Part shown: piece by piece, positions 30,274-35,067 of the stretch
How the letters are laid out: each line of letters begins with the position of its first letter
Position numbering within the stretch: position 1 is the stretch's first letter
Assembly: GCA_035317185.1 (NCBI GenBank)
Contig: DATHHN010000048.1
Location: forward strand, 27,194 to 91,193
Source: Edaphobacter sp.
Lineage (GTDB): Bacteria > Acidobacteriota > Terriglobia > Terriglobales > Acidobacteriaceae
Length of the DNA: 64,000 nucleotides
Direction of reading: 5' to 3'
Translations under genes and position numbers: made by a program
Notes under the pieces: generated by a model
Seen by the model: only the letters and a program-made list of their open reading frames with translations
What the model was told of the DNA's origin: nothing
Database searches by the model: none

Positions 30274-31722
30274 CTAGAAGTCGACGTGCATTCTTAGGGA
30301 TTCGACCAGGACCGGACCACGATCTCTGTTGTAGCCGGGGTGGTTGATGGATTGGAGGTCGAGCGCGTAGTAGACGCCGCGCCACGCGTGCAGATTGTAG
30401 TAAGCTTCGACGATGTTTTCGCGACCGTAGTTCAGTTTGCCGTCACCGAGCAGGAAACCGAGGCCACCGTAGGCCAGGTAGTTCTGGTGGTCTTTCTTGA
30501 TGGCATTGCTGACGAAGGTCACGCCCAGCTTGTCGTTGGGGCGGGACCATCCGCGTCCGGAGTAGTCGCCGCCGAACGAGACGGTCTGATCGACCTCGGT
30601 GTAGGCGAAGGACTCGTGCTGGCCCTCGTTCCAGCCGATGCGGGTGAAGGCGCGGAGGTTCCGGGTCACTTCCTGCTCGGCGTTGAGGGCGAAGCCGTAC
30701 TTTACGGAGCTGAACTTCCTGTGTGCGACGATGTCGGGCTTGGGATCCTGTCCGGCGAGGAAGGCATTTACGGCGTCACGATAGAGGCCCATGTTGGCAT
30801 GGTTGACGAAGCTGAGCACGCGGACGGTGCCTTTGCGGTCGGAGGAGACGAGTGGACCGAGCAGCGATTTACGGAGCTCGAACTCCATATTTTGTCCACT
30901 GGCGCGGCTGATGGCCCAGTCGAGGTCGATGCCGTTGGCGGTGGTGGGCATGGCGGCGAGACCGTAGCGGGCGGACCAGTTTTTGTCGTGGTATTCAAGG
31001 ACGCCGGCGTAGGTGTAGCCGCGGGTATCGGCGGCGTAGTCCCAGGCTCCGTTGTTGTCGATGGTCCAATTGAGGAACTGGAGGTGGCTGTCGGAGCCGA
31101 CGGTGTTGATGTCGAAGTAGTCGGGGAGGCTCATCTTGCCGAAGTGGAGCTCGAAGCGACGCTCGGGAACCTGCGTAGCCAGAGCGAAAGGTGTGCGTTC
31201 GCTTTCGATGAGCTTGTCGGTGAGGCCGAGGGTCTGGTGAATCTGAACGCGGGCGATGTAGGGCTTCGAGCCGAGGTTTGGGTTGCGGACGACGTCGAGG
31301 TTGGTGAAGCCGGCGAGACCGAGCGCCTGGCTGATGCCGCGGCCGCCGGAGGATTCAATGTCCAGGATGGCGTCGGTGTTGTACCGGGGGTTGCGGTTGA
31401 CCTGCGCTCCGAGGAAGAGCGTTCCGAGCAGGGAAGTCTTGTATTCGCCTCGGCTTTGGAGGCTGTTGATTCCTTCGTAGGGAGAGTGGAAGGGGCCGTG
31501 GCCCTGCAGGATGATATTGGCTTGCCCGGTCGCCAGAAAGCGGGAGGTTTCAGAGTGCGGAAAGATGGTCAGGGGTGGGTCTGTCTCTGGTGCCGATGGT
31601 TTGGACGGAGCCGCGGGTTTGCTTGGATGCGGATCTTCCGGGAGCAGATCCTGGCCATAGCAAGTGAGCGAAAGAGTAAGAAGAAAGAGAGCGGCCAGCG
31701 CTTGCATCGAGTCCTTGGGCAT
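30274..31722 (-). CDS. OprB/carbohydrate-porin-family outer membrane porin (similar in type to the MnoP metal porin)
   Basis: Signal peptide MQALAALFLLTLSLTCYGQ; GGRGISQALGLAGFTNLD, WTIDNNGAWDYAADTRGYTYAG, GFLLGDGKLNYGRENIVEAYY; C-terminal Phe. Start 31722 or 31707 (SD AAGGA). Confidence 0.85.
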   Translation of the reverse strand: MPKDSMQALAALFLLTLSLTCYGQDLLPEDPHPSKPAAPSKPSAPETDPPLTIFPHSETSRFLATGQANIILQGHGPFHSPYEGINSLQSRGEYKTSLLGTLFLGAQVNRNPRYNTDAILDIESSGGRGISQALGLAGFTNLDVVRNPNLGSKPYIARVQIHQTLGLTDKLIESERTPFALATQVPERRFELHFGKMSLPDYFDINTVGSDSHLQFLNWTIDNNGAWDYAADTRGYTYAGVLEYHDKNWSARYGLAAMPTTANGIDLDWAISRASGQNMEFELRKSLLGPLVSSDRKGTVRVLSFVNHANMGLYRDAVNAFLAGQDPKPDIVAHRKFSSVKYGFALNAEQEVTRNLRAFTRIGWNEGQHESFAYTEVDQTVSFGGDYSGRGWSRPNDKLGVTFVSNAIKKDHQNYLAYGGLGFLLGDGKLNYGRENIVEAYYNLHAWRGVYYALDLQSINHPGYNRDRGPVLVESLRMHVDF

Positions 31723-31998
31723 TCGGGATGATCGTATTAAGGGTGCAGGAGAAGTATGAATATAGAGCAAACAGCCTGCCTTCAAAGAACGACGGGAGAA
31801 GGCAGGCCGCATTGATCCGGGGTCGTCGTCATGGTCGGCGAGGGTATCCGCGATGACTGCGGGCAGGGCGAACCAGACACAGGCGAGCGGACAACGCTCA
31901 TCCGCGGTTTCAACCCAGCGGCGAACGATATCGGGGCGAGGACGGGACATCTTTGATCGATTAAGATGCAACATCCGTTTGGTCATTTGCATGATCAT
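31723..31998 (-). other. In-frame upstream leader region of the porin with its own SD/ATG and an internal hairpin
   Basis: AAAGGAG then ATG 31998; encodes ...IVRRWVETADERCPLACVW...DHDDD...; 10-bp stem GCCTGCCTTC/GAAGGCAGGC at 31774-31807; no stop before the porin. Confidence 0.45.
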
Positions 31999-32070
31999 TT
32001 GGCTGACTTCTCCTTTCTGCTGCAAGACTGGCTGTGAAGGGCTTGCGTCGCGGATGAACAACACTGATAG

Positions 32071-32089
32071 TATACCCCCGTAGGGTATA
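32071..32089. promoter_or_regulatory. CsoR/RcnR-type operator
   Basis: TATACCC-CCGTA-GGGTATA (AT-rich inverted repeat flanking C/G tracts) between the divergent porin and repressor; overlaps a minus-strand TATACT (32074-32069). Confidence 0.8.
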
Positions 32090-32101
32090 GGAGTTATATT
32101 T

Positions 32102-32377
32102 ATGTCACACGTAAATCGTGAAAAAGCGAAGCTGCTGAATCGAATGAAACGGATTCGCGGGCAGATGGAATCGGTCGAGCGAAAGCTTGCAGCCGAGGAC
32201 CATGACTGCGCCGAGGTTTTGATGCTGTTGGCTGCGGTGAGGGGCGGTATCAACGGCTTGATGGCGGAGGTTCTGGAGGACCATATCCGGCTGCATCTTT
32301 TGCAGGACGGTCACGCTCCACTTACACCGGATCTGGGAGAAGATCTGATCGATCTGGTACGGGCGTATCTGAAATGA
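32102..32377 (+). CDS. rcnR: RcnR-type Ni/Co-sensing repressor (CsoR/RcnR family)
   Basis: LLNRMKRIRGQ, and the His3-Cys36-His61-His65 fingerprint counted in the translation. Confidence 0.88.
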   Translation: MSHVNREKAKLLNRMKRIRGQMESVERKLAAEDHDCAEVLMLLAAVRGGINGLMAEVLEDHIRLHLLQDGHAPLTPDLGEDLIDLVRAYLK

Positions 32378-32438
32378 CTGTGCCTTGTGCTCCCGACTCC
32401 CGAGCGGCTGTTGTGCGCCGCTCAGGAATTGGTTGTGT

Positions 32439-32660
32439 CTAGCGGCCTTTGACCCCAACTGCGACCAAGCCGACACCGGCGACAAGTGCGAGGGTGCTAA
32501 GGATGGGGGAGATTGGCAATGTGTCCTTGGTTTCGTGGGAGACCTGGACGGGTCCGAGATCGACGTCTTTCTTCTGGTGCGTGAAGGAGATGCCTCCGGT
32601 GGCAAATCCGATGATGGCTAGGAGAATGAGCAAAGCTCCGATGATGGTTGCTGGTTTCAT
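32439..32660 (-). CDS. Small two-TM protein (DUF3185-like)
   Basis: Two hydrophobic helices around a DLGPVQVSHE loop. Confidence 0.75.
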   Translation of the reverse strand: MKPATIIGALLILLAIIGFATGGISFTHQKKDVDLGPVQVSHETKDTLPISPILSTLALVAGVGLVAVGVKGR

Positions 32661-32811
32661 GGATGGGGTTGACCTTTCGTGCGTCTACGTGCGCGTTATG
32701 CAGTGAGATGCGTAAGTTATTGCAAAGCGATGCCTTTGATTGCGGAATGGACGAGGGCAGTGGTTGGTTTGGTAAACTTGCGGCGTTCTGCGGCATCTGT
32801 GGGAGGTCACT

Positions 32812-35067
32812 TTGTTGAGTCGATCCGTTCCTGTATTTGCGTTGTTTTGTGCAACGGCGAGTTTGCTGGCTCAACAGCAGAGCTTCGGCGGCTCGCTGAG
32901 CGGAAGGCTTACTGACCTTTCAGGCGTGAATGTAGCCGAGGCTACCGTAACGGTGGTGCAGGATGGAACGGAACGATCGTTTTCGACGGCCAGCGATCGA
33001 AATGGAAGGTTCCAGTTTGCCGATCTTCCGGACGGGCGCTATGAGGTGACGGTGCACCGCGCCAACTTCGCCGATGCAAGGCGAGTTGTGACTGTGCAGG
33101 GGCATGAGGCAGCGGTAGTATCTGTTCAACTTGGAAAAGCAGAAAGTGCGGCGCAGCCTAGTCAACGGCTCATCTTCAATACTCCACGATCAAACACTGC
33201 GACGATGCCACTGCTCGACGAGCCTCGGCCTGTGGGTGAGGGGCAGGCGATTGAGATGCCCGATATGCTCAACGGCCTGACGGCGATCCAGGAATTTCGG
33301 GTGATGAACGATGCGTATCGTGCAGGGGTTTCTATGGGCATCCCGGGCGCGAATGCGGCGATGGTTCATGGTGAAGTGTATGGTTTGGCGGGAAACTCGC
33401 TGATGGGTTTGAACGGAATGCTGACCGCTGTTCAGGTTCCGTTGGCGCAGTATGGCGGATCGGTGGGAGGAGCGAGCCAACGCGGAGGGAGCTCGTATTT
33501 TGTGGGTTTCGACCAGAACTCGATGGATCGAAACAAGGTACTCGCGGGTAGTGTTGGCCAGCCTCTTTTACAAAAGGATTCTGCGGGGCACTCGCTGGTG
33601 TCCAATCAGCTTCTGGCGCGAATCGACCATCAGATTGGACAGCGGGATACGGTGAGTGCACGCTATAGCCGTTCGGCTATGAGTAATCCGTTGCAGGGTG
33701 CCGGGGCGCAGGCAGCGGGCCTCAACATACAGCAGCAGACTGCGACGGTGGACAACACGGTTGCGATTTCGCCGCGGACGATCAATGCGACGCAGGCGCA
33801 GTATGTCGATGGAAGTGTGCGGGTTCCGGCGGGGGCGCCGGCACAGGGCATCCAGGCGGATGTGGCAACGGCACGTCGGTACAGGATCTACGAGGCTGCG
33901 GATAATCTTTATCATCAGATGGGCCGCCAGACTATGCAGGTGGGTGGGGATTTCTTCTTCAACCAGATGAGCGTTGCGTTTCTGGAGGGAGCCTCCGGGA
34001 ACGCGAGTTTTGGCCAATCATCGCGAAACGTGGGTTTCTACGCCCAGAATCAGTGGAAGATGAGACCCGACTTTGTGGTGACGGCAGGGGCTCGGTACGA
34101 CCTTGAGTCGTTGAAAAATGTGCATGCCGATACGAATAATGTCGCACCCCAGGTCGGTTTTGCGTGGGCGCCGGGAGGGTCGAGGAGCACGGTGATTCGG
34201 GGCGGCTTCGGTCTGATGTATGAGCAGCTTCCGCTGCCAACGATCTCGGGCGCGGCGGATTCCATGGGAGCGGTCAACCTGGCGCGGTCGGGAAACTTTA
34301 CGGCTGGCCGCAGCGGCATACCGATCGCGTCGCTGGCCAGTTTCAGTGTGGTCGATCCGATGATTCAAAACTCGTATGCGGAGGAGGCAAATGTGGAGTT
34401 CGAGCAGCAACTCGGTGCGCGAACGACGATTTCGGCAAGCTTGCAGCATGTGAGTGGGCGGCAGATTGAATCCCCTGGCTATAACGCCGCGGCGCTTTGT
34501 GCGGTGGCAAGTGGATGCAGTGCGGGGAATGAATTCTACGGAGGAACGCGGTATACGTCCGGATCGAACTCCTCGTATGACGGCCTCTCGGTCTCGTTCG
34601 TTCAGAGGCCGGTGCGCTGGGGCGATTACAAGGTTTCGTATACGTATGCCACCGCGCAGAGCTCAGGCGCGCAGGAGTACAACGCCATTGTAGGAGACCA
34701 GATGCGGCGGGTGTCTTTTACTGGCGCGCTCCACACTTCGCCGGATGCGGCGACGAATCTGTGGCAGAATCTGAGCCATAACTTTGCGTTGACGGGATAT
34801 GGCGACTTTACAAGGCGCAACGAGATGCCCGGGCTGGACTTTATTCATTTCAATGCTCAGTTGGTCAAGAGTTTTCAGCTAGGGACGCGAGCTCGCCTGG
34901 AAGCAGTGGCGCAATCGTTCAACATGCTGGAACATCGAAACTATTCGATCGATAAAGCAAGGGAAGAGCTGGGGGAGTATGGAGTGAACATCCTCTCGTC
35001 GTACGAACGCGTGTCGGCGCTTGCAACGCCGAATGGAAGCCAGGTCGGGTTGCGGCTGAAGTTCTAA
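32812..35067 (+). CDS. Compact TonB-dependent-receptor-like protein with an N-terminal carboxypeptidase-regulatory-like domain
   Basis: Signal peptide; GRLTDLSG..AEATVTV..GRFQFADLPDGRYEV; YAQNQWK..VTAGARYD, APQVGFAWAP, TVIRGGFG; ends GLRLKF; SD GGAGG. Confidence 0.8.
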   Translation: MLSRSVPVFALFCATASLLAQQQSFGGSLSGRLTDLSGVNVAEATVTVVQDGTERSFSTASDRNGRFQFADLPDGRYEVTVHRANFADARRVVTVQGHEAAVVSVQLGKAESAAQPSQRLIFNTPRSNTATMPLLDEPRPVGEGQAIEMPDMLNGLTAIQEFRVMNDAYRAGVSMGIPGANAAMVHGEVYGLAGNSLMGLNGMLTAVQVPLAQYGGSVGGASQRGGSSYFVGFDQNSMDRNKVLAGSVGQPLLQKDSAGHSLVSNQLLARIDHQIGQRDTVSARYSRSAMSNPLQGAGAQAAGLNIQQQTATVDNTVAISPRTINATQAQYVDGSVRVPAGAPAQGIQADVATARRYRIYEAADNLYHQMGRQTMQVGGDFFFNQMSVAFLEGASGNASFGQSSRNVGFYAQNQWKMRPDFVVTAGARYDLESLKNVHADTNNVAPQVGFAWAPGGSRSTVIRGGFGLMYEQLPLPTISGAADSMGAVNLARSGNFTAGRSGIPIASLASFSVVDPMIQNSYAEEANVEFEQQLGARTTISASLQHVSGRQIESPGYNAAALCAVASGCSAGNEFYGGTRYTSGSNSSYDGLSVSFVQRPVRWGDYKVSYTYATAQSSGAQEYNAIVGDQMRRVSFTGALHTSPDAATNLWQNLSHNFALTGYGDFTRRNEMPGLDFIHFNAQLVKSFQLGTRARLEAVAQSFNMLEHRNYSIDKAREELGEYGVNILSSYERVSALATPNGSQVGLRLKF

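What the first reader, a model, noticed from the sequence alone, without database searches (positions are those of the whole stretch)
31723..31998. Cys/His/Asp-containing leader ORF with an internal hairpin, in frame with the porin: possible metal-sensing leader or fused micro-protein
Seen: an SD (AAAGGAG) and ATG 92 codons upstream of the porin signal peptide, encoding VRRWVETADERCPLACVW (CxxxC) and DHDDD, then a perfect 10-bp stem (31774-31807) followed on the coding strand by TGTTTG. A 92-aa hydrophilic stretch in front of a Sec signal is atypical. Inference: a second control layer below RcnR (leader-peptide attenuation), or a separate small metal-binding protein that lost its stop codon here.
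Basis: partly seen in the sequence, partly recalled or inferred. Interest (0 to 1): 0.62.

Follow-up and report, generated by a model that had tools for sequence, protein, structure and literature searches.

The report
Conserved leader reading frame gating a porin
The 92 codons in front of this outer-membrane porin are a real, translated and previously undescribed leader reading frame of soil Acidobacteria; with its fixed RNA hairpin it most likely controls how many ribosomes reach the porin gene, rather than acting as a metal-binding protein.

Summary
In detail: the SD and ATG (31998), the 92 in-frame codons, the CxxxC and DHDDD motifs and the hairpin (31807-31774) are all present. The ORF belongs to a conserved family with no Pfam or NCBIfam match, found only in Acidobacteriaceae among the genomes searched. 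In about 120 loci it always lies between a divergent rcnR-type repressor gene and an OprB porin gene.

The 21-residue core (RRWVETADERCPLACVWFALP) varies only at synonymous sites, so it is translated. The hairpin is kept by compensatory changes at a fixed distance from the core. It is preceded by an acidic cluster and by the rarest codon of Leu, Ser or Ile.

The leader has a strong SD in 42 of 42 loci where this was measured. The porin start has none (0 of 42) and lies a median 16.5 nt after the leader's stop. The window belongs to a clade that lost that stop, so leader and porin are fused.

Weaker paralogs precede NRAMP transporters; the two in this genome also have rcnR-type neighbours.

Best reading: a cis-acting leader that feeds ribosomes to the porin start through a programmed pause. 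The signal is unknown. Metal binding by the Cys pair is not supported, because neither Cys is universal.

The parts
32102..32377 (+). Divergent rcnR-type repressor gene (PF02583; His3-Cys36-His61-His65).
   Evidence: Pfam E=7e-19. A homolog sits in the same divergent position in all 34 genome loci and in nearly all metagenome loci long enough to show it.
32071..32089 (.). RcnR/CsoR-type operator palindrome TATACCCTACGGGGGTATA, overlapping a TATACT -10-like hexamer.
   Evidence: Read directly. Conserved in the relatives' alignment. Also seen in L106 about 45 nt before the leader ATG.
32010..32016 (-). Shine-Dalgarno sequence AAAGGAG of the leader ORF.
   Evidence: Duplex with the anti-SD is -13.1 kcal/mol. 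Leader starts of 42 of 42 relatives are at or below -6, mean -14. The block GAAAGGAG(G/A)AGTCAGCC is conserved.
31723..31998 (-). Leader ORF of 92 codons with no stop, continuing in frame into the porin.
   Evidence: Family membership.
31861..31923 (-). Invariant core R26-P46 (RRWVETADERCPLACVWFALP).
   Evidence: Over core codons 0-14, nearly all variation is at third codon positions, and T, A, P and G each use 3-4 synonymous codons. AlphaFold2 models it as a beta-hairpin; the 10-residue blocks covering it average pLDDT 73-84, and the rest of the peptide is disordered.
31819..31830 (-). Acidic cluster with proline, D57-D58-D59-P60.
   Evidence: D-[DE] is present at codons -7 and -6 before the hairpin's Pro codon in about 88 of 91 loci. 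Pro or Ser follows at -5.
31813..31815 (-). Rare codon TCA (Ser62), 7 nt before the foot of the hairpin (family-wide spacing; 5-7 nt here).
   Evidence: At this position the family uses TTA 43, TCA 21, ATA 11 and CTA 3 of 91. TTA, ATA and TCA are the rarest Leu, Ile and Ser codons in the window's genes (1.6%, 8%, 6.1%), and CTA is the second-rarest Leu codon at 4.9%.
31771..31810 (-). RNA hairpin inside the ORF. The arms encode (R)PAF and KAG, with a 14-nt loop.
   Evidence: Free energy -24.4 kcal/mol, z = -4.9. Present at +91 to +97 nt from the W/F codon in nearly all of 97 loci, with several different stem sequences.
31768..31773 (-). Tail TGTTTG after the stem, a weak U-tract.
   Evidence: T at alignment column 43 is at least 90% conserved. 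The sister subfamily often has TTTTTATT or TTTTCAT here.
31705..31722 (-). Junction with the porin's own candidate starts: ATG 31722-31720 and ATG 31707-31705, the latter preceded by AAGGA (31716-31712).
   Evidence: SD duplex for the 31707 start is -4.9 kcal/mol. Most clade members instead have TTG at the equivalent place (31 of 31) with no SD.
30274..31707 (-). OprB-family porin gene; the signal peptide is MQALAALFLLTLSLTCYG/QD.
   Evidence: PF04966. A homolog lies directly downstream of the leader in all 34 genome loci.

Best explanation
The stretch is a translated, cis-acting leader reading frame (upstream ORF) that carries ribosomes from its own strong ribosome-binding site to the porin start, which lacks one. 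Built into it is a programmed pause module made of four parts. These are an invariant 21-residue nascent peptide, an acidic D-D-(E)-P cluster, one very rare codon, and a stable hairpin whose foot lies 7 nt after that codon. When the rare codon is in the A site, the hairpin foot sits at the ribosome's mRNA entrance, the acidic cluster is near the peptidyl-transferase centre, and the invariant peptide lies roughly 17-35 residues back in the exit tunnel. The module would set how many ribosomes get through to make porin. Pass-through happens by termination and reinitiation in relatives that keep the stop. In this window's clade it happens by direct read-through as an N-terminal extension that signal peptidase would remove. 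A second possible effect is on whether the downstream RNA is left naked for termination. RcnR sets transcription and the leader adds a translational layer. What is shown: the ORF is translated and under amino-acid selection; the hairpin is selected as RNA; the SD asymmetry and the spacing. What is inferred: pausing, its consequences, and the existence and nature of any signal.
For: Translation and peptide selection: in the core, variation is almost confined to third codon positions, and every synonymous codon of T, A, P and G is used.

Family size: 59 proteins and 78 cluster representatives. No Pfam or NCBIfam match.

Fixed module: the order rcnR, leader, porin holds in 34 of 34 genome loci and in the metagenome loci.

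SD asymmetry: leader starts average -14 kcal/mol, with 42 of 42 at or below -6. Porin starts average -1.25, with 0 of 42. The median stop-to-start spacer is 16.5 nt.

In the clade carrying the LKNS junction motif (fused loci plus a few that keep the stop), the porin's TTG is kept in 31 of 31 loci, while neighbouring Leu codons vary.

Hairpin: constant position; 95.2% paired, 0 of 500 shuffles as high, 8 of 11 pairs with double changes, and G-U pairs that fit the sense-strand RNA.

Rare codon: the rarest codon of Leu, Ser or Ile is used at one fixed position.

Separate and fused architectures interchange freely. This fits a role in which ribosome passage is what matters.

Paralogs: three copies in this genome, each directly upstream of a transport gene (the porin and two NRAMP genes). 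In the NRAMP copies the leader's stop overlaps the GTG start, and by my reading of the sequence the SD can be paired inside a hairpin in the leader's 3' end.

Structure: AlphaFold2 finds no globular fold, mean pLDDT 60 and pTM 0.30.

RNA: metatranscriptome contigs of a relative cover the leader and the porin 5' part as one RNA.
Against: There are no ribosome-profiling, toeprint or reporter data, so pausing is inferred from geometry alone. One relative (L005) has lost the acidic cluster and the left arm of the hairpin yet keeps the ORF and the porin. The window's own porin has a modest SD (AAGGA) and an ATG, so here it may also start independently. Some distant paralogs precede purM, a DapA-like gene or a TPR protein, which does not fit a purely metal-transport role. 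A conserved beta-hairpin peptide could also act in trans. In the fused clade, ribosomes from the leader ATG would make a porin precursor with about 110 extra N-terminal residues, and its export has not been demonstrated.
Confidence: 0.5

Rival explanations
1. The ORF encodes a trans-acting small cytoplasmic protein, a roughly 24-residue beta-hairpin with disordered tails. It would work with the RcnR-type regulator or in metal handling and is merely co-translated with the porin. On this reading the hairpin is an mRNA stability or processing element.
For: There is strong amino-acid conservation. AlphaFold2 gives a moderately confident beta-hairpin for the core. All three copies in this genome lie beside PF02583 regulator genes. 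One Cys next to Pro (ERCP) is invariant in both porin-linked subfamilies.
Against: Only about 21 residues are conserved and the rest is predicted to be disordered. No Cys is universal across the wider family. Many distant copies have no rcnR gene within the roughly 1.5 kb of upstream flank held. Codon-level and RNA-level constraints at fixed distances from the peptide have no obvious use for a trans-acting protein. A trans-acting protein would not be expected to tolerate fusion to a signal peptide across a whole clade.
Confidence: 0.22
2. The main output is transcription attenuation. The ORF-internal hairpin plus U-rich tail would be an intrinsic terminator (pyrBI type), or the G-poor, C/U-rich RNA after it would be a Rho entry site. 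A ribosome following RNA polymerase closely suppresses termination, and a ribosome held at the pause site allows it.
For: The stem is GC-rich and is followed by TTTTTATT or TTTTCAT in many subfamily-2 loci and by TGTTTGC in subfamily 1. The ORF runs through the hairpin, as in pyrL. The region at +150 to +210 has a C/G ratio of about 2 with 16% G.
Against: The terminator scan finds nothing in the window. Loops are 10-19 nt and many tails are not U-rich (ATCTCAT, CATTCAT). I saw no conserved alternative anti-terminator pairing, though I did not search for one systematically. RNA contigs of a relative span the hairpin. The C>G excess is modest against a strand baseline of about 1.2.
Confidence: 0.15
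3. In this clade the 92 residues are a functional N-terminal cytoplasmic domain of the porin precursor, for example for export control or regulated proteolysis, and not a leader.
For: The reading frame stays open into the porin in about 30 loci of the clade, and the junction (..LAQSLKNSIHTIAA..) is conserved.
Against: The ancestral and most widespread state is two separate ORFs. Close relatives differ only by Gln codon versus stop at one position. The TTG at the signal peptide's N-terminus is kept in 31 of 31 loci as if it were a start codon. The same peptide family precedes inner-membrane NRAMP genes as a separate overlapping ORF.
Confidence: 0.06

Closest known systems
CruR (DUF2946/PF11162) copper-responsive upstream ORF of Bordetella pertussis (PMC9426467)
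   Same: It is a conserved upstream ORF of similar size that heads an operon for an outer-membrane transporter in a metal regulon. It carries a Cys motif. Its nascent peptide controls the downstream genes post-transcriptionally through translation arrest.
   Different: The window's peptide has no PF11162 match, no signal peptide and no C-terminal RAPP arrest motif. Its Cys pair is not conserved. The candidate pause site is internal, at an acidic cluster, a rare codon and a hairpin. The downstream gene lacks an SD and is sometimes fused in frame. Rho involvement is untested.
SecM-secA, MifM-yidC2 and VemP-secDF2 arrest-peptide leaders (my own knowledge)
   Same: Each has an invariant stretch of nascent peptide of about tunnel length and an mRNA hairpin in or after the leader ORF. 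Downstream translation depends on where the leader's ribosome sits.
   Different: Those leaders are exported or membrane-inserted force sensors, and stalling opens a hairpin that hides the downstream SD. Here there is no export signal, the porin has no SD to unmask, and the hairpin lies ahead of the presumed pause site. There is no sequence similarity.
pyrL (pyrBI leader) of E. coli (my own knowledge)
   Same: The leader ORF runs through a hairpin and U-tract, so a closely coupled ribosome could physically prevent the hairpin from forming.
   Different: pyrL has no conserved peptide, because its signal is UTP-sensitive polymerase pausing. Here the peptide is invariant and the U-tract is weak.
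MgtL and intrinsic ribosome destabilisation by acidic/proline runs (Chadani et al. 2017; my own knowledge)
   Same: A D/E-plus-Pro cluster in a leader ORF upstream of a divalent-cation transporter. Weaker paralogs of the window's leader sit before NRAMP genes.
   Different: MgtL is 17 residues long with EPDP near its N-terminus. Here about 55 residues precede the cluster, which should counteract destabilisation. The cluster is short, and Mg or Mn dependence is untested.
Leader genes placed about 10-16 nt before structural genes and proposed to boost translation by reinitiation (Korolev et al. 2016, PMC4833913)
   Same: There is a short stop-to-start spacer (median 16.5 nt) with a strong SD only on the leader. 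Acidobacteria are among the phyla that show the distance peak in that study.
   Different: That study describes a statistical trend among unrelated short ORFs. Here there is a single homologous family with an invariant peptide, a covarying hairpin and a fused variant.

Membership tests
CruR / DUF2946 (PF11162) | Sequence match to the Pfam model | tested here: not met
   The Pfam scan of the 92-aa peptide at E up to 0.1 gave 0 families. Scans of relatives and paralogs at E up to 10 gave none.
CruR / DUF2946 (PF11162) | N-terminal signal peptide or TM segment, and a C-terminal RAPP-type arrest motif just before the stop | tested here: not met
   The N-terminus MIMQMTKRMLHLNRSKMSRPRPD is basic with no hydrophobic run. 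C-termini in the family end ..TLA..RYSLA or ..CA, with no R-A-P-P.
CruR / DUF2946 (PF11162) | Conserved CXXC that senses the metal | tested here: not met
   The motif is CPLAC (CxxxC) only in subfamily 1. It is CPIAG in subfamily 2 and xPLAC in the NRAMP-linked copies.
Nascent-peptide ribosome arrest leaders (functional class) | ORF translated, with selection on the amino-acid sequence over a tunnel-length stretch | tested here: met
   Across about 15 near-invariant core residues, variation is almost only at third codon positions.
Nascent-peptide ribosome arrest leaders (functional class) | Demonstrated ribosome stalling at a defined codon | not testable with these tools
   There are no Ribo-seq or toeprint data. 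Only geometry is available: the rare codon lies 7 nt before the hairpin foot and follows the acidic cluster.
Nascent-peptide ribosome arrest leaders (functional class) | Downstream gene expression depends on the leader's translation | tested here: inconclusive
   The evidence is indirect. The porin start has no SD in 0 of 42 loci against 42 of 42 for the leader, and the spacer is short. No experiment has been done.
Classical leader-peptide transcription attenuator (trp/his type) | Run of regulatory codons for one amino acid | tested here: not met
   No such run exists in the 92 codons or in the family alignments.
Classical leader-peptide transcription attenuator (trp/his type) | Intrinsic terminator plus a mutually exclusive anti-terminator | tested here: inconclusive
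   A hairpin is present but its U-tract is weak or variable. I found no conserved alternative pairing by eye when reading the alignments, but I did not search systematically.
Known RNA families (Rfam 15) | Covariance-model match in 31000-33000 | tested here: not met
   Only chance-level hits were returned, with E from 0.64 to 6 and all far below gathering scores. Nine paralog loci gave nothing except one tRNA.
RcnR/CsoR-regulated operon | PF02583 repressor gene adjacent and a G/C-tract palindrome operator in the shared promoter region | tested here: met
   PF02583 E=7e-19. The operator TATACCCTACGGGGGTATA lies at 32089-32071 and is conserved in relatives.

The most novel reading that the evidence does not exclude
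This would be the founding member of a new family of ribosome arrest peptides, so far found only in Acidobacteriaceae. The invariant nascent peptide W-V-x-T-[GA]-[DN]-x-R-x-P-L-A-x-[VI]-W, held in the exit tunnel, would act together with an acidic cluster at the catalytic centre, a rare codon and an mRNA hairpin. It would sense a small ligand, possibly a divalent metal, and gate translation of transport genes that have no ribosome-binding site (OprB porins; NRAMP importers and a CzcC-like gene in weaker paralogs). RcnR-type repressors would then be paired with a translational sensor, which might resolve the paradox of a metal-derepressed uptake channel.
Probability: 0.2. Interest if true: 0.85.

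Novelty: new variant of a known kind. Interest (0 to 1): 0.62.

Why it matters
If the reading is right, it adds a new and sequence-unrelated family to the short list of leader peptides that regulate through the ribosome. It comes from a dominant but poorly studied soil phylum and is tied to metal homeostasis genes.

It also offers a natural experiment. The same element exists as a separate upstream ORF and as an in-frame N-terminal extension, which shows how a coupling uORF can turn into part of a coding sequence.

There is a practical consequence too. Annotation pipelines will call a porin with about 90-180 spurious N-terminal residues in this clade, and they will miss or mislabel the small ORF elsewhere.

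Finally, it bears on the companion puzzle of why an RcnR-type repressor, which is derepressed by excess metal, controls an uptake-type porin and NRAMP transporters.

Tried and rejected
- **Known riboswitch or RNA family.** The Rfam E-value scan of 31000-33000 and the gathering scan of nine paralog loci found nothing.
- **Consensus promoter/terminator scan of 31500-32500.** It returned 0 sites.
- **Global structure of the 361-nt leader region.** It is not unusual (z = -0.86). Only the local hairpin is.
- **Metal-binding CxxxC protein.** Rejected because neither Cys is universal and AlphaFold2 gives no globular fold.
- **Programmed frameshift at the hairpin.** The spacing fits, but the codons before it (CCN GAA TTA and the like) are not slippery. 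A +1-frame stop appears in only part of the family.
- **Long-range pairing of the leader SD with ACUUCUCC (31753-31746).** This appears in the single-sequence fold, but relatives keep only CCTGCACC. Not pursued.
- **Pairing of the GAAUUA flank with the downstream AUUCA.** There is no covariation.
- **RNA-seq for the window and for Tunturiibacter.** No runs were found. Only low-depth metatranscriptome contigs on a relative were available, and their ends are not usable as TSS or 3' ends.
- **Literature.** Searches found no description of this peptide family.
- **Earlier scan notes.** Sequence and word searches held nothing on the leader itself.

Full report
**Observation**

- AAAGGAG lies at 32016-32010 and the ATG at 31998.
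- Ninety-two sense codons run down to 31723. They are in frame with an OprB-family porin gene (PF04966, E=8e-26) that ends at 30274.
- The peptide contains RRWVETADERCPLACVW and DHDDD.
- The 10-bp stem is 31807-31798 / 31783-31774 and extends to 13 pairs with G-U. It folds at -24.4 kcal/mol with z = -4.9. TGTTTG follows it.
- Upstream and divergent is an rcnR-type gene (PF02583, 32102-32377). A TATACCCTACGGGGGTATA operator lies at 32089-32071.

No Rfam family matches the region. The consensus promoter/terminator scan finds nothing.

**The ORF is a real, conserved, translated gene family**

- A DNA search of relatives found the same region in several genomes of the same genus.
- A protein search found 59 relatives, most of them called as stand-alone 80-94-aa hypothetical proteins with no Pfam domain.
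- An exhaustive profile search found 78 cluster representatives, nearly all 60-100 aa long.
- Named genome records place the family in Acidobacteriaceae: Edaphobacter aggregans DSM 19364, Tunturiibacter lichenicola MP8S11, strain KBS 89, and Granulicella and Edaphobacter MAGs.
- A class-wide sample of 401 genomes gave hits only inside this family.
- Pfam and NCBIfam have no model for it, and I found no paper describing it.

There are two subfamilies.
- Subfamily 1, which includes the window: RRWVETADERCPLACVWFALP..DQDDEP..PAFS..KAG.
- Subfamily 2: LTRTFVETGDERCPIAGIWSRL..ADDPEL.RPAM..WRAF.

Within each subfamily, variation across core codons 0-14 is almost entirely at third codon positions. 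Thr, Ala, Pro and Gly each use three or four synonymous codons. This is the signature of translation under purifying selection on the peptide.

AlphaFold2, run with the family alignment, gives no globular fold (mean pLDDT 60, pTM 0.30). It models only a beta-hairpin, strands 23-30 and 38-45, over the invariant core.

**Fixed genomic module**

In all 34 non-redundant genome loci, a divergent rcnR homolog lies about 170-250 nt upstream of the core and an OprB porin gene lies directly downstream. The roughly 80 metagenome loci show the same arrangement wherever the contig is long enough.

**Separate versus fused**

All subfamily-2 loci and the deeper subfamily-1 loci have their own stop, 156-219 nt after the W/F codon. 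The porin ATG follows after a median spacer of 16.5 nt.

About 30 subfamily-1 loci, the window among them, have no stop and read into the porin in frame. Close relatives differ only by CAA/CAG (Gln) versus TAA/TGA at one position of ..TLA|Q|SLKNSIH...

**Who owns the ribosome-binding site**

| Start site | Loci with SD duplex at or below -6 kcal/mol | Mean duplex energy (kcal/mol) |
|---|---|---|
| Leader start | 42 of 42 | -14 |
| Porin start, separate-ORF loci | 0 of 42 | -1.25 |
| Conserved TTG, LKNS-junction clade (mostly fused) | 0 of 31 | -1.97 |

That TTG is present in 31 of 31 loci, while neighbouring Leu codons are TTG only 23% of the time.

Porin synthesis therefore most likely depends on ribosomes that entered at the leader. 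They would reach the porin by termination and reinitiation, or by read-through. This matches the general idea of reinitiation after leader genes proposed in PMC4833913.

The window's own subclade (with L035 and L146) has acquired an ATG preceded by AAGGA (-4.9 kcal/mol). Here an independent start is also possible.

**The hairpin is selected as RNA and sits at a fixed distance**

In nearly all of 97 non-redundant loci, a stem of 8-16 pairs begins 91-97 nt after the W/F codon; in the window it begins at +107 because of a 4-codon insertion. Several different stem sequences occur:
- GGCCTGCCTTC / GAAGGCAGGC
- GCCTGTCTTC / GAAGACAGGC
- GGCCCGCCATG / CATGGCGGGCC
- GGCCCGTC / GACGGGCC
- GGCCCACCGTG / CACGGTGGGCC
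- TGGCGCATCCTC / GAGGATGCGCCA

On a 64-sequence alignment, 95.2% of cells are paired against 82.8% in shuffles (0 of 500 as high). Eight of 11 pairs change on both sides, and controls with the partner slid by 1-3 columns pair only 30-48%. RNAalifold predicts the same helix independently. Much of the covariation separates the two subfamilies, but several pairs also vary within them. The frequent G-U pairs fit the sense-strand RNA. The amino acids encoded by the arms change (A to V, A to T) to keep the pairing.

**Codon-level signal just before the hairpin**

Counting back from the Pro codon of the left arm:
- Codons -7 and -6 are D-[DE] in about 88 of 91 loci.
- Codon -5 is mostly Pro or Ser.
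- Codon -4 is GAA or GGA. GAA occurs 52 times and GAG never.
- Codon -3 is TTA (43), TCA (21), ATA (11) or CTA (3).

TTA, TCA and ATA are the rarest codons of Leu, Ser and Ile in the window's genes, at 1.6%, 6.1% and 8%. CTA is the second-rarest Leu codon at 4.9%. The window has TCA at 31815-31813.

With that codon in the A site, three things line up. The hairpin foot is about 10 nt from the P-site codon, at the mRNA entrance. The acidic cluster is near the catalytic centre. The invariant 21 residues lie roughly 17-35 residues back in the exit tunnel. This geometry is my inference. It is the basis for proposing a programmed pause. Nothing here shows that pausing occurs.

**Paralogs**

The genome holds three copies. 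The other two, on contigs C41 and C88, are weaker paralogs with the motif ..LT[RC]xWVxTGNxRxPLACVW.. They lie directly upstream of NRAMP genes (PF01566, E=4e-70). In each, the leader's stop overlaps the NRAMP GTG start, and by my reading the NRAMP SD can be paired inside a hairpin in the leader's 3' end.

Both copies also have a divergent PF02583 gene (66% identical to the window's rcnR, with an x-C-H-H fingerprint) and an operator TATATCCTATGGGGGTATGATA. The genome has five PF02583 genes in all.

Across 301 Acidobacteriaceae genomes, the wider family occurs in 27 genomes from 19 of 142 genera. It precedes OprB porins, NRAMP transporters, one CzcC/TolC-like gene next to an rcnR gene, and also purM, a DapA-like gene and a TPR protein. 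Many of these distant copies have no rcnR gene within the flank held.

No Cys is universal, which argues against a Cys-pair metal site.

**RNA evidence**

No RNA runs hold the window or the Tunturiibacter locus. Low-depth peat and moss metatranscriptome contigs lie on a subfamily-2 relative (L106) from the leader start across the hairpin into the porin. This shows co-transcription and at least some read-through. The contig ends are not informative.

**Interpretation**

The best-supported reading is a cis-acting leader ORF that couples ribosomes to the SD-less porin start and carries a pause module, beneath RcnR's transcriptional control.

Three rivals remain:
- A trans-acting beta-hairpin peptide.
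- A pyrBI-type or Rho-type attenuator as the main output. The U-tract is weak here and the C>G excess downstream is only modest.
- A true N-terminal domain of the porin.

The free interchange of separate and fused forms, the codon- and RNA-level constraints at fixed distances, and the repeated placement directly in front of transport genes favour the cis reading.

The closest characterised analogue is CruR (DUF2946, PMC9426467). It is a metal-responsive upstream ORF before an outer-membrane transporter gene. The window's peptide fails every defining feature of that family, so it works like that kind of element but is not a member. The signal sensed, if there is one, is unknown.

Noticed in passing
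L032:1150-1492 and L034:1140-1483 (own genome, G000:C88 and C41): The NRAMP-linked paralogs have a roughly 340-nt 5' region between the RcnR-type operator (TATATCCTATGGGGGTATGATA) and the leader ATG. It contains a segment conserved between the copies and in L026 (..CAAGAACCTCCGAGTNACCGGAGG.., a possible CCUCCG/CGGAGG hairpin). There is no Rfam match.
   Followed up: partly
window 32439-32660 (-): A 73-aa two-TM protein with a weak DUF4383 match lies just beyond rcnR. It is conserved at that position in most relatives, so it may belong to the same module.
   Followed up: partly
G000:C41:23648-23881 and G000:C88:29954-30184: Two further PF02583 (CsoR/RcnR-family) genes lie about 7 kb from each NRAMP module. 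They have no detectable leader of this family. C41 and C88 look like diverged duplicates of one region.
   Followed up: no
L031 / L174 (G257:C1:104895-105125): A 140-aa ORF with two tandem copies of the W..W motif (SRVWIETGDPRQPLKSVWIDE and SRVWIWTEDPRMPLKSVLIDE) lies upstream of purM. Single-motif relatives occupy the same position in G324 (also before purM), G155 and G247.
   Followed up: partly
L005 (G004:C1, around 4484851): One same-genus relative has an 81-nt in-frame deletion that removes the acidic cluster and the left arm of the hairpin. It keeps the core peptide, the open frame and the porin. This is a natural variant for testing whether the hairpin is needed.
   Followed up: partly
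L182 (G146:C2:91565-91672): A leader of this family with a divergent rcnR-type gene precedes a TolC/CzcC-like outer-membrane factor, assigned by reading its sequence and not scanned against Pfam, instead of a porin. The leader may therefore serve efflux modules as well as uptake-type ones.
   Followed up: no
window 30274-32253 (-): Mechanical ORF calling gives a 659-aa frame from a TTG inside rcnR's antisense strand. Automatic annotation of this clade will probably report porins with about 90-180 spurious N-terminal residues.
   Followed up: no
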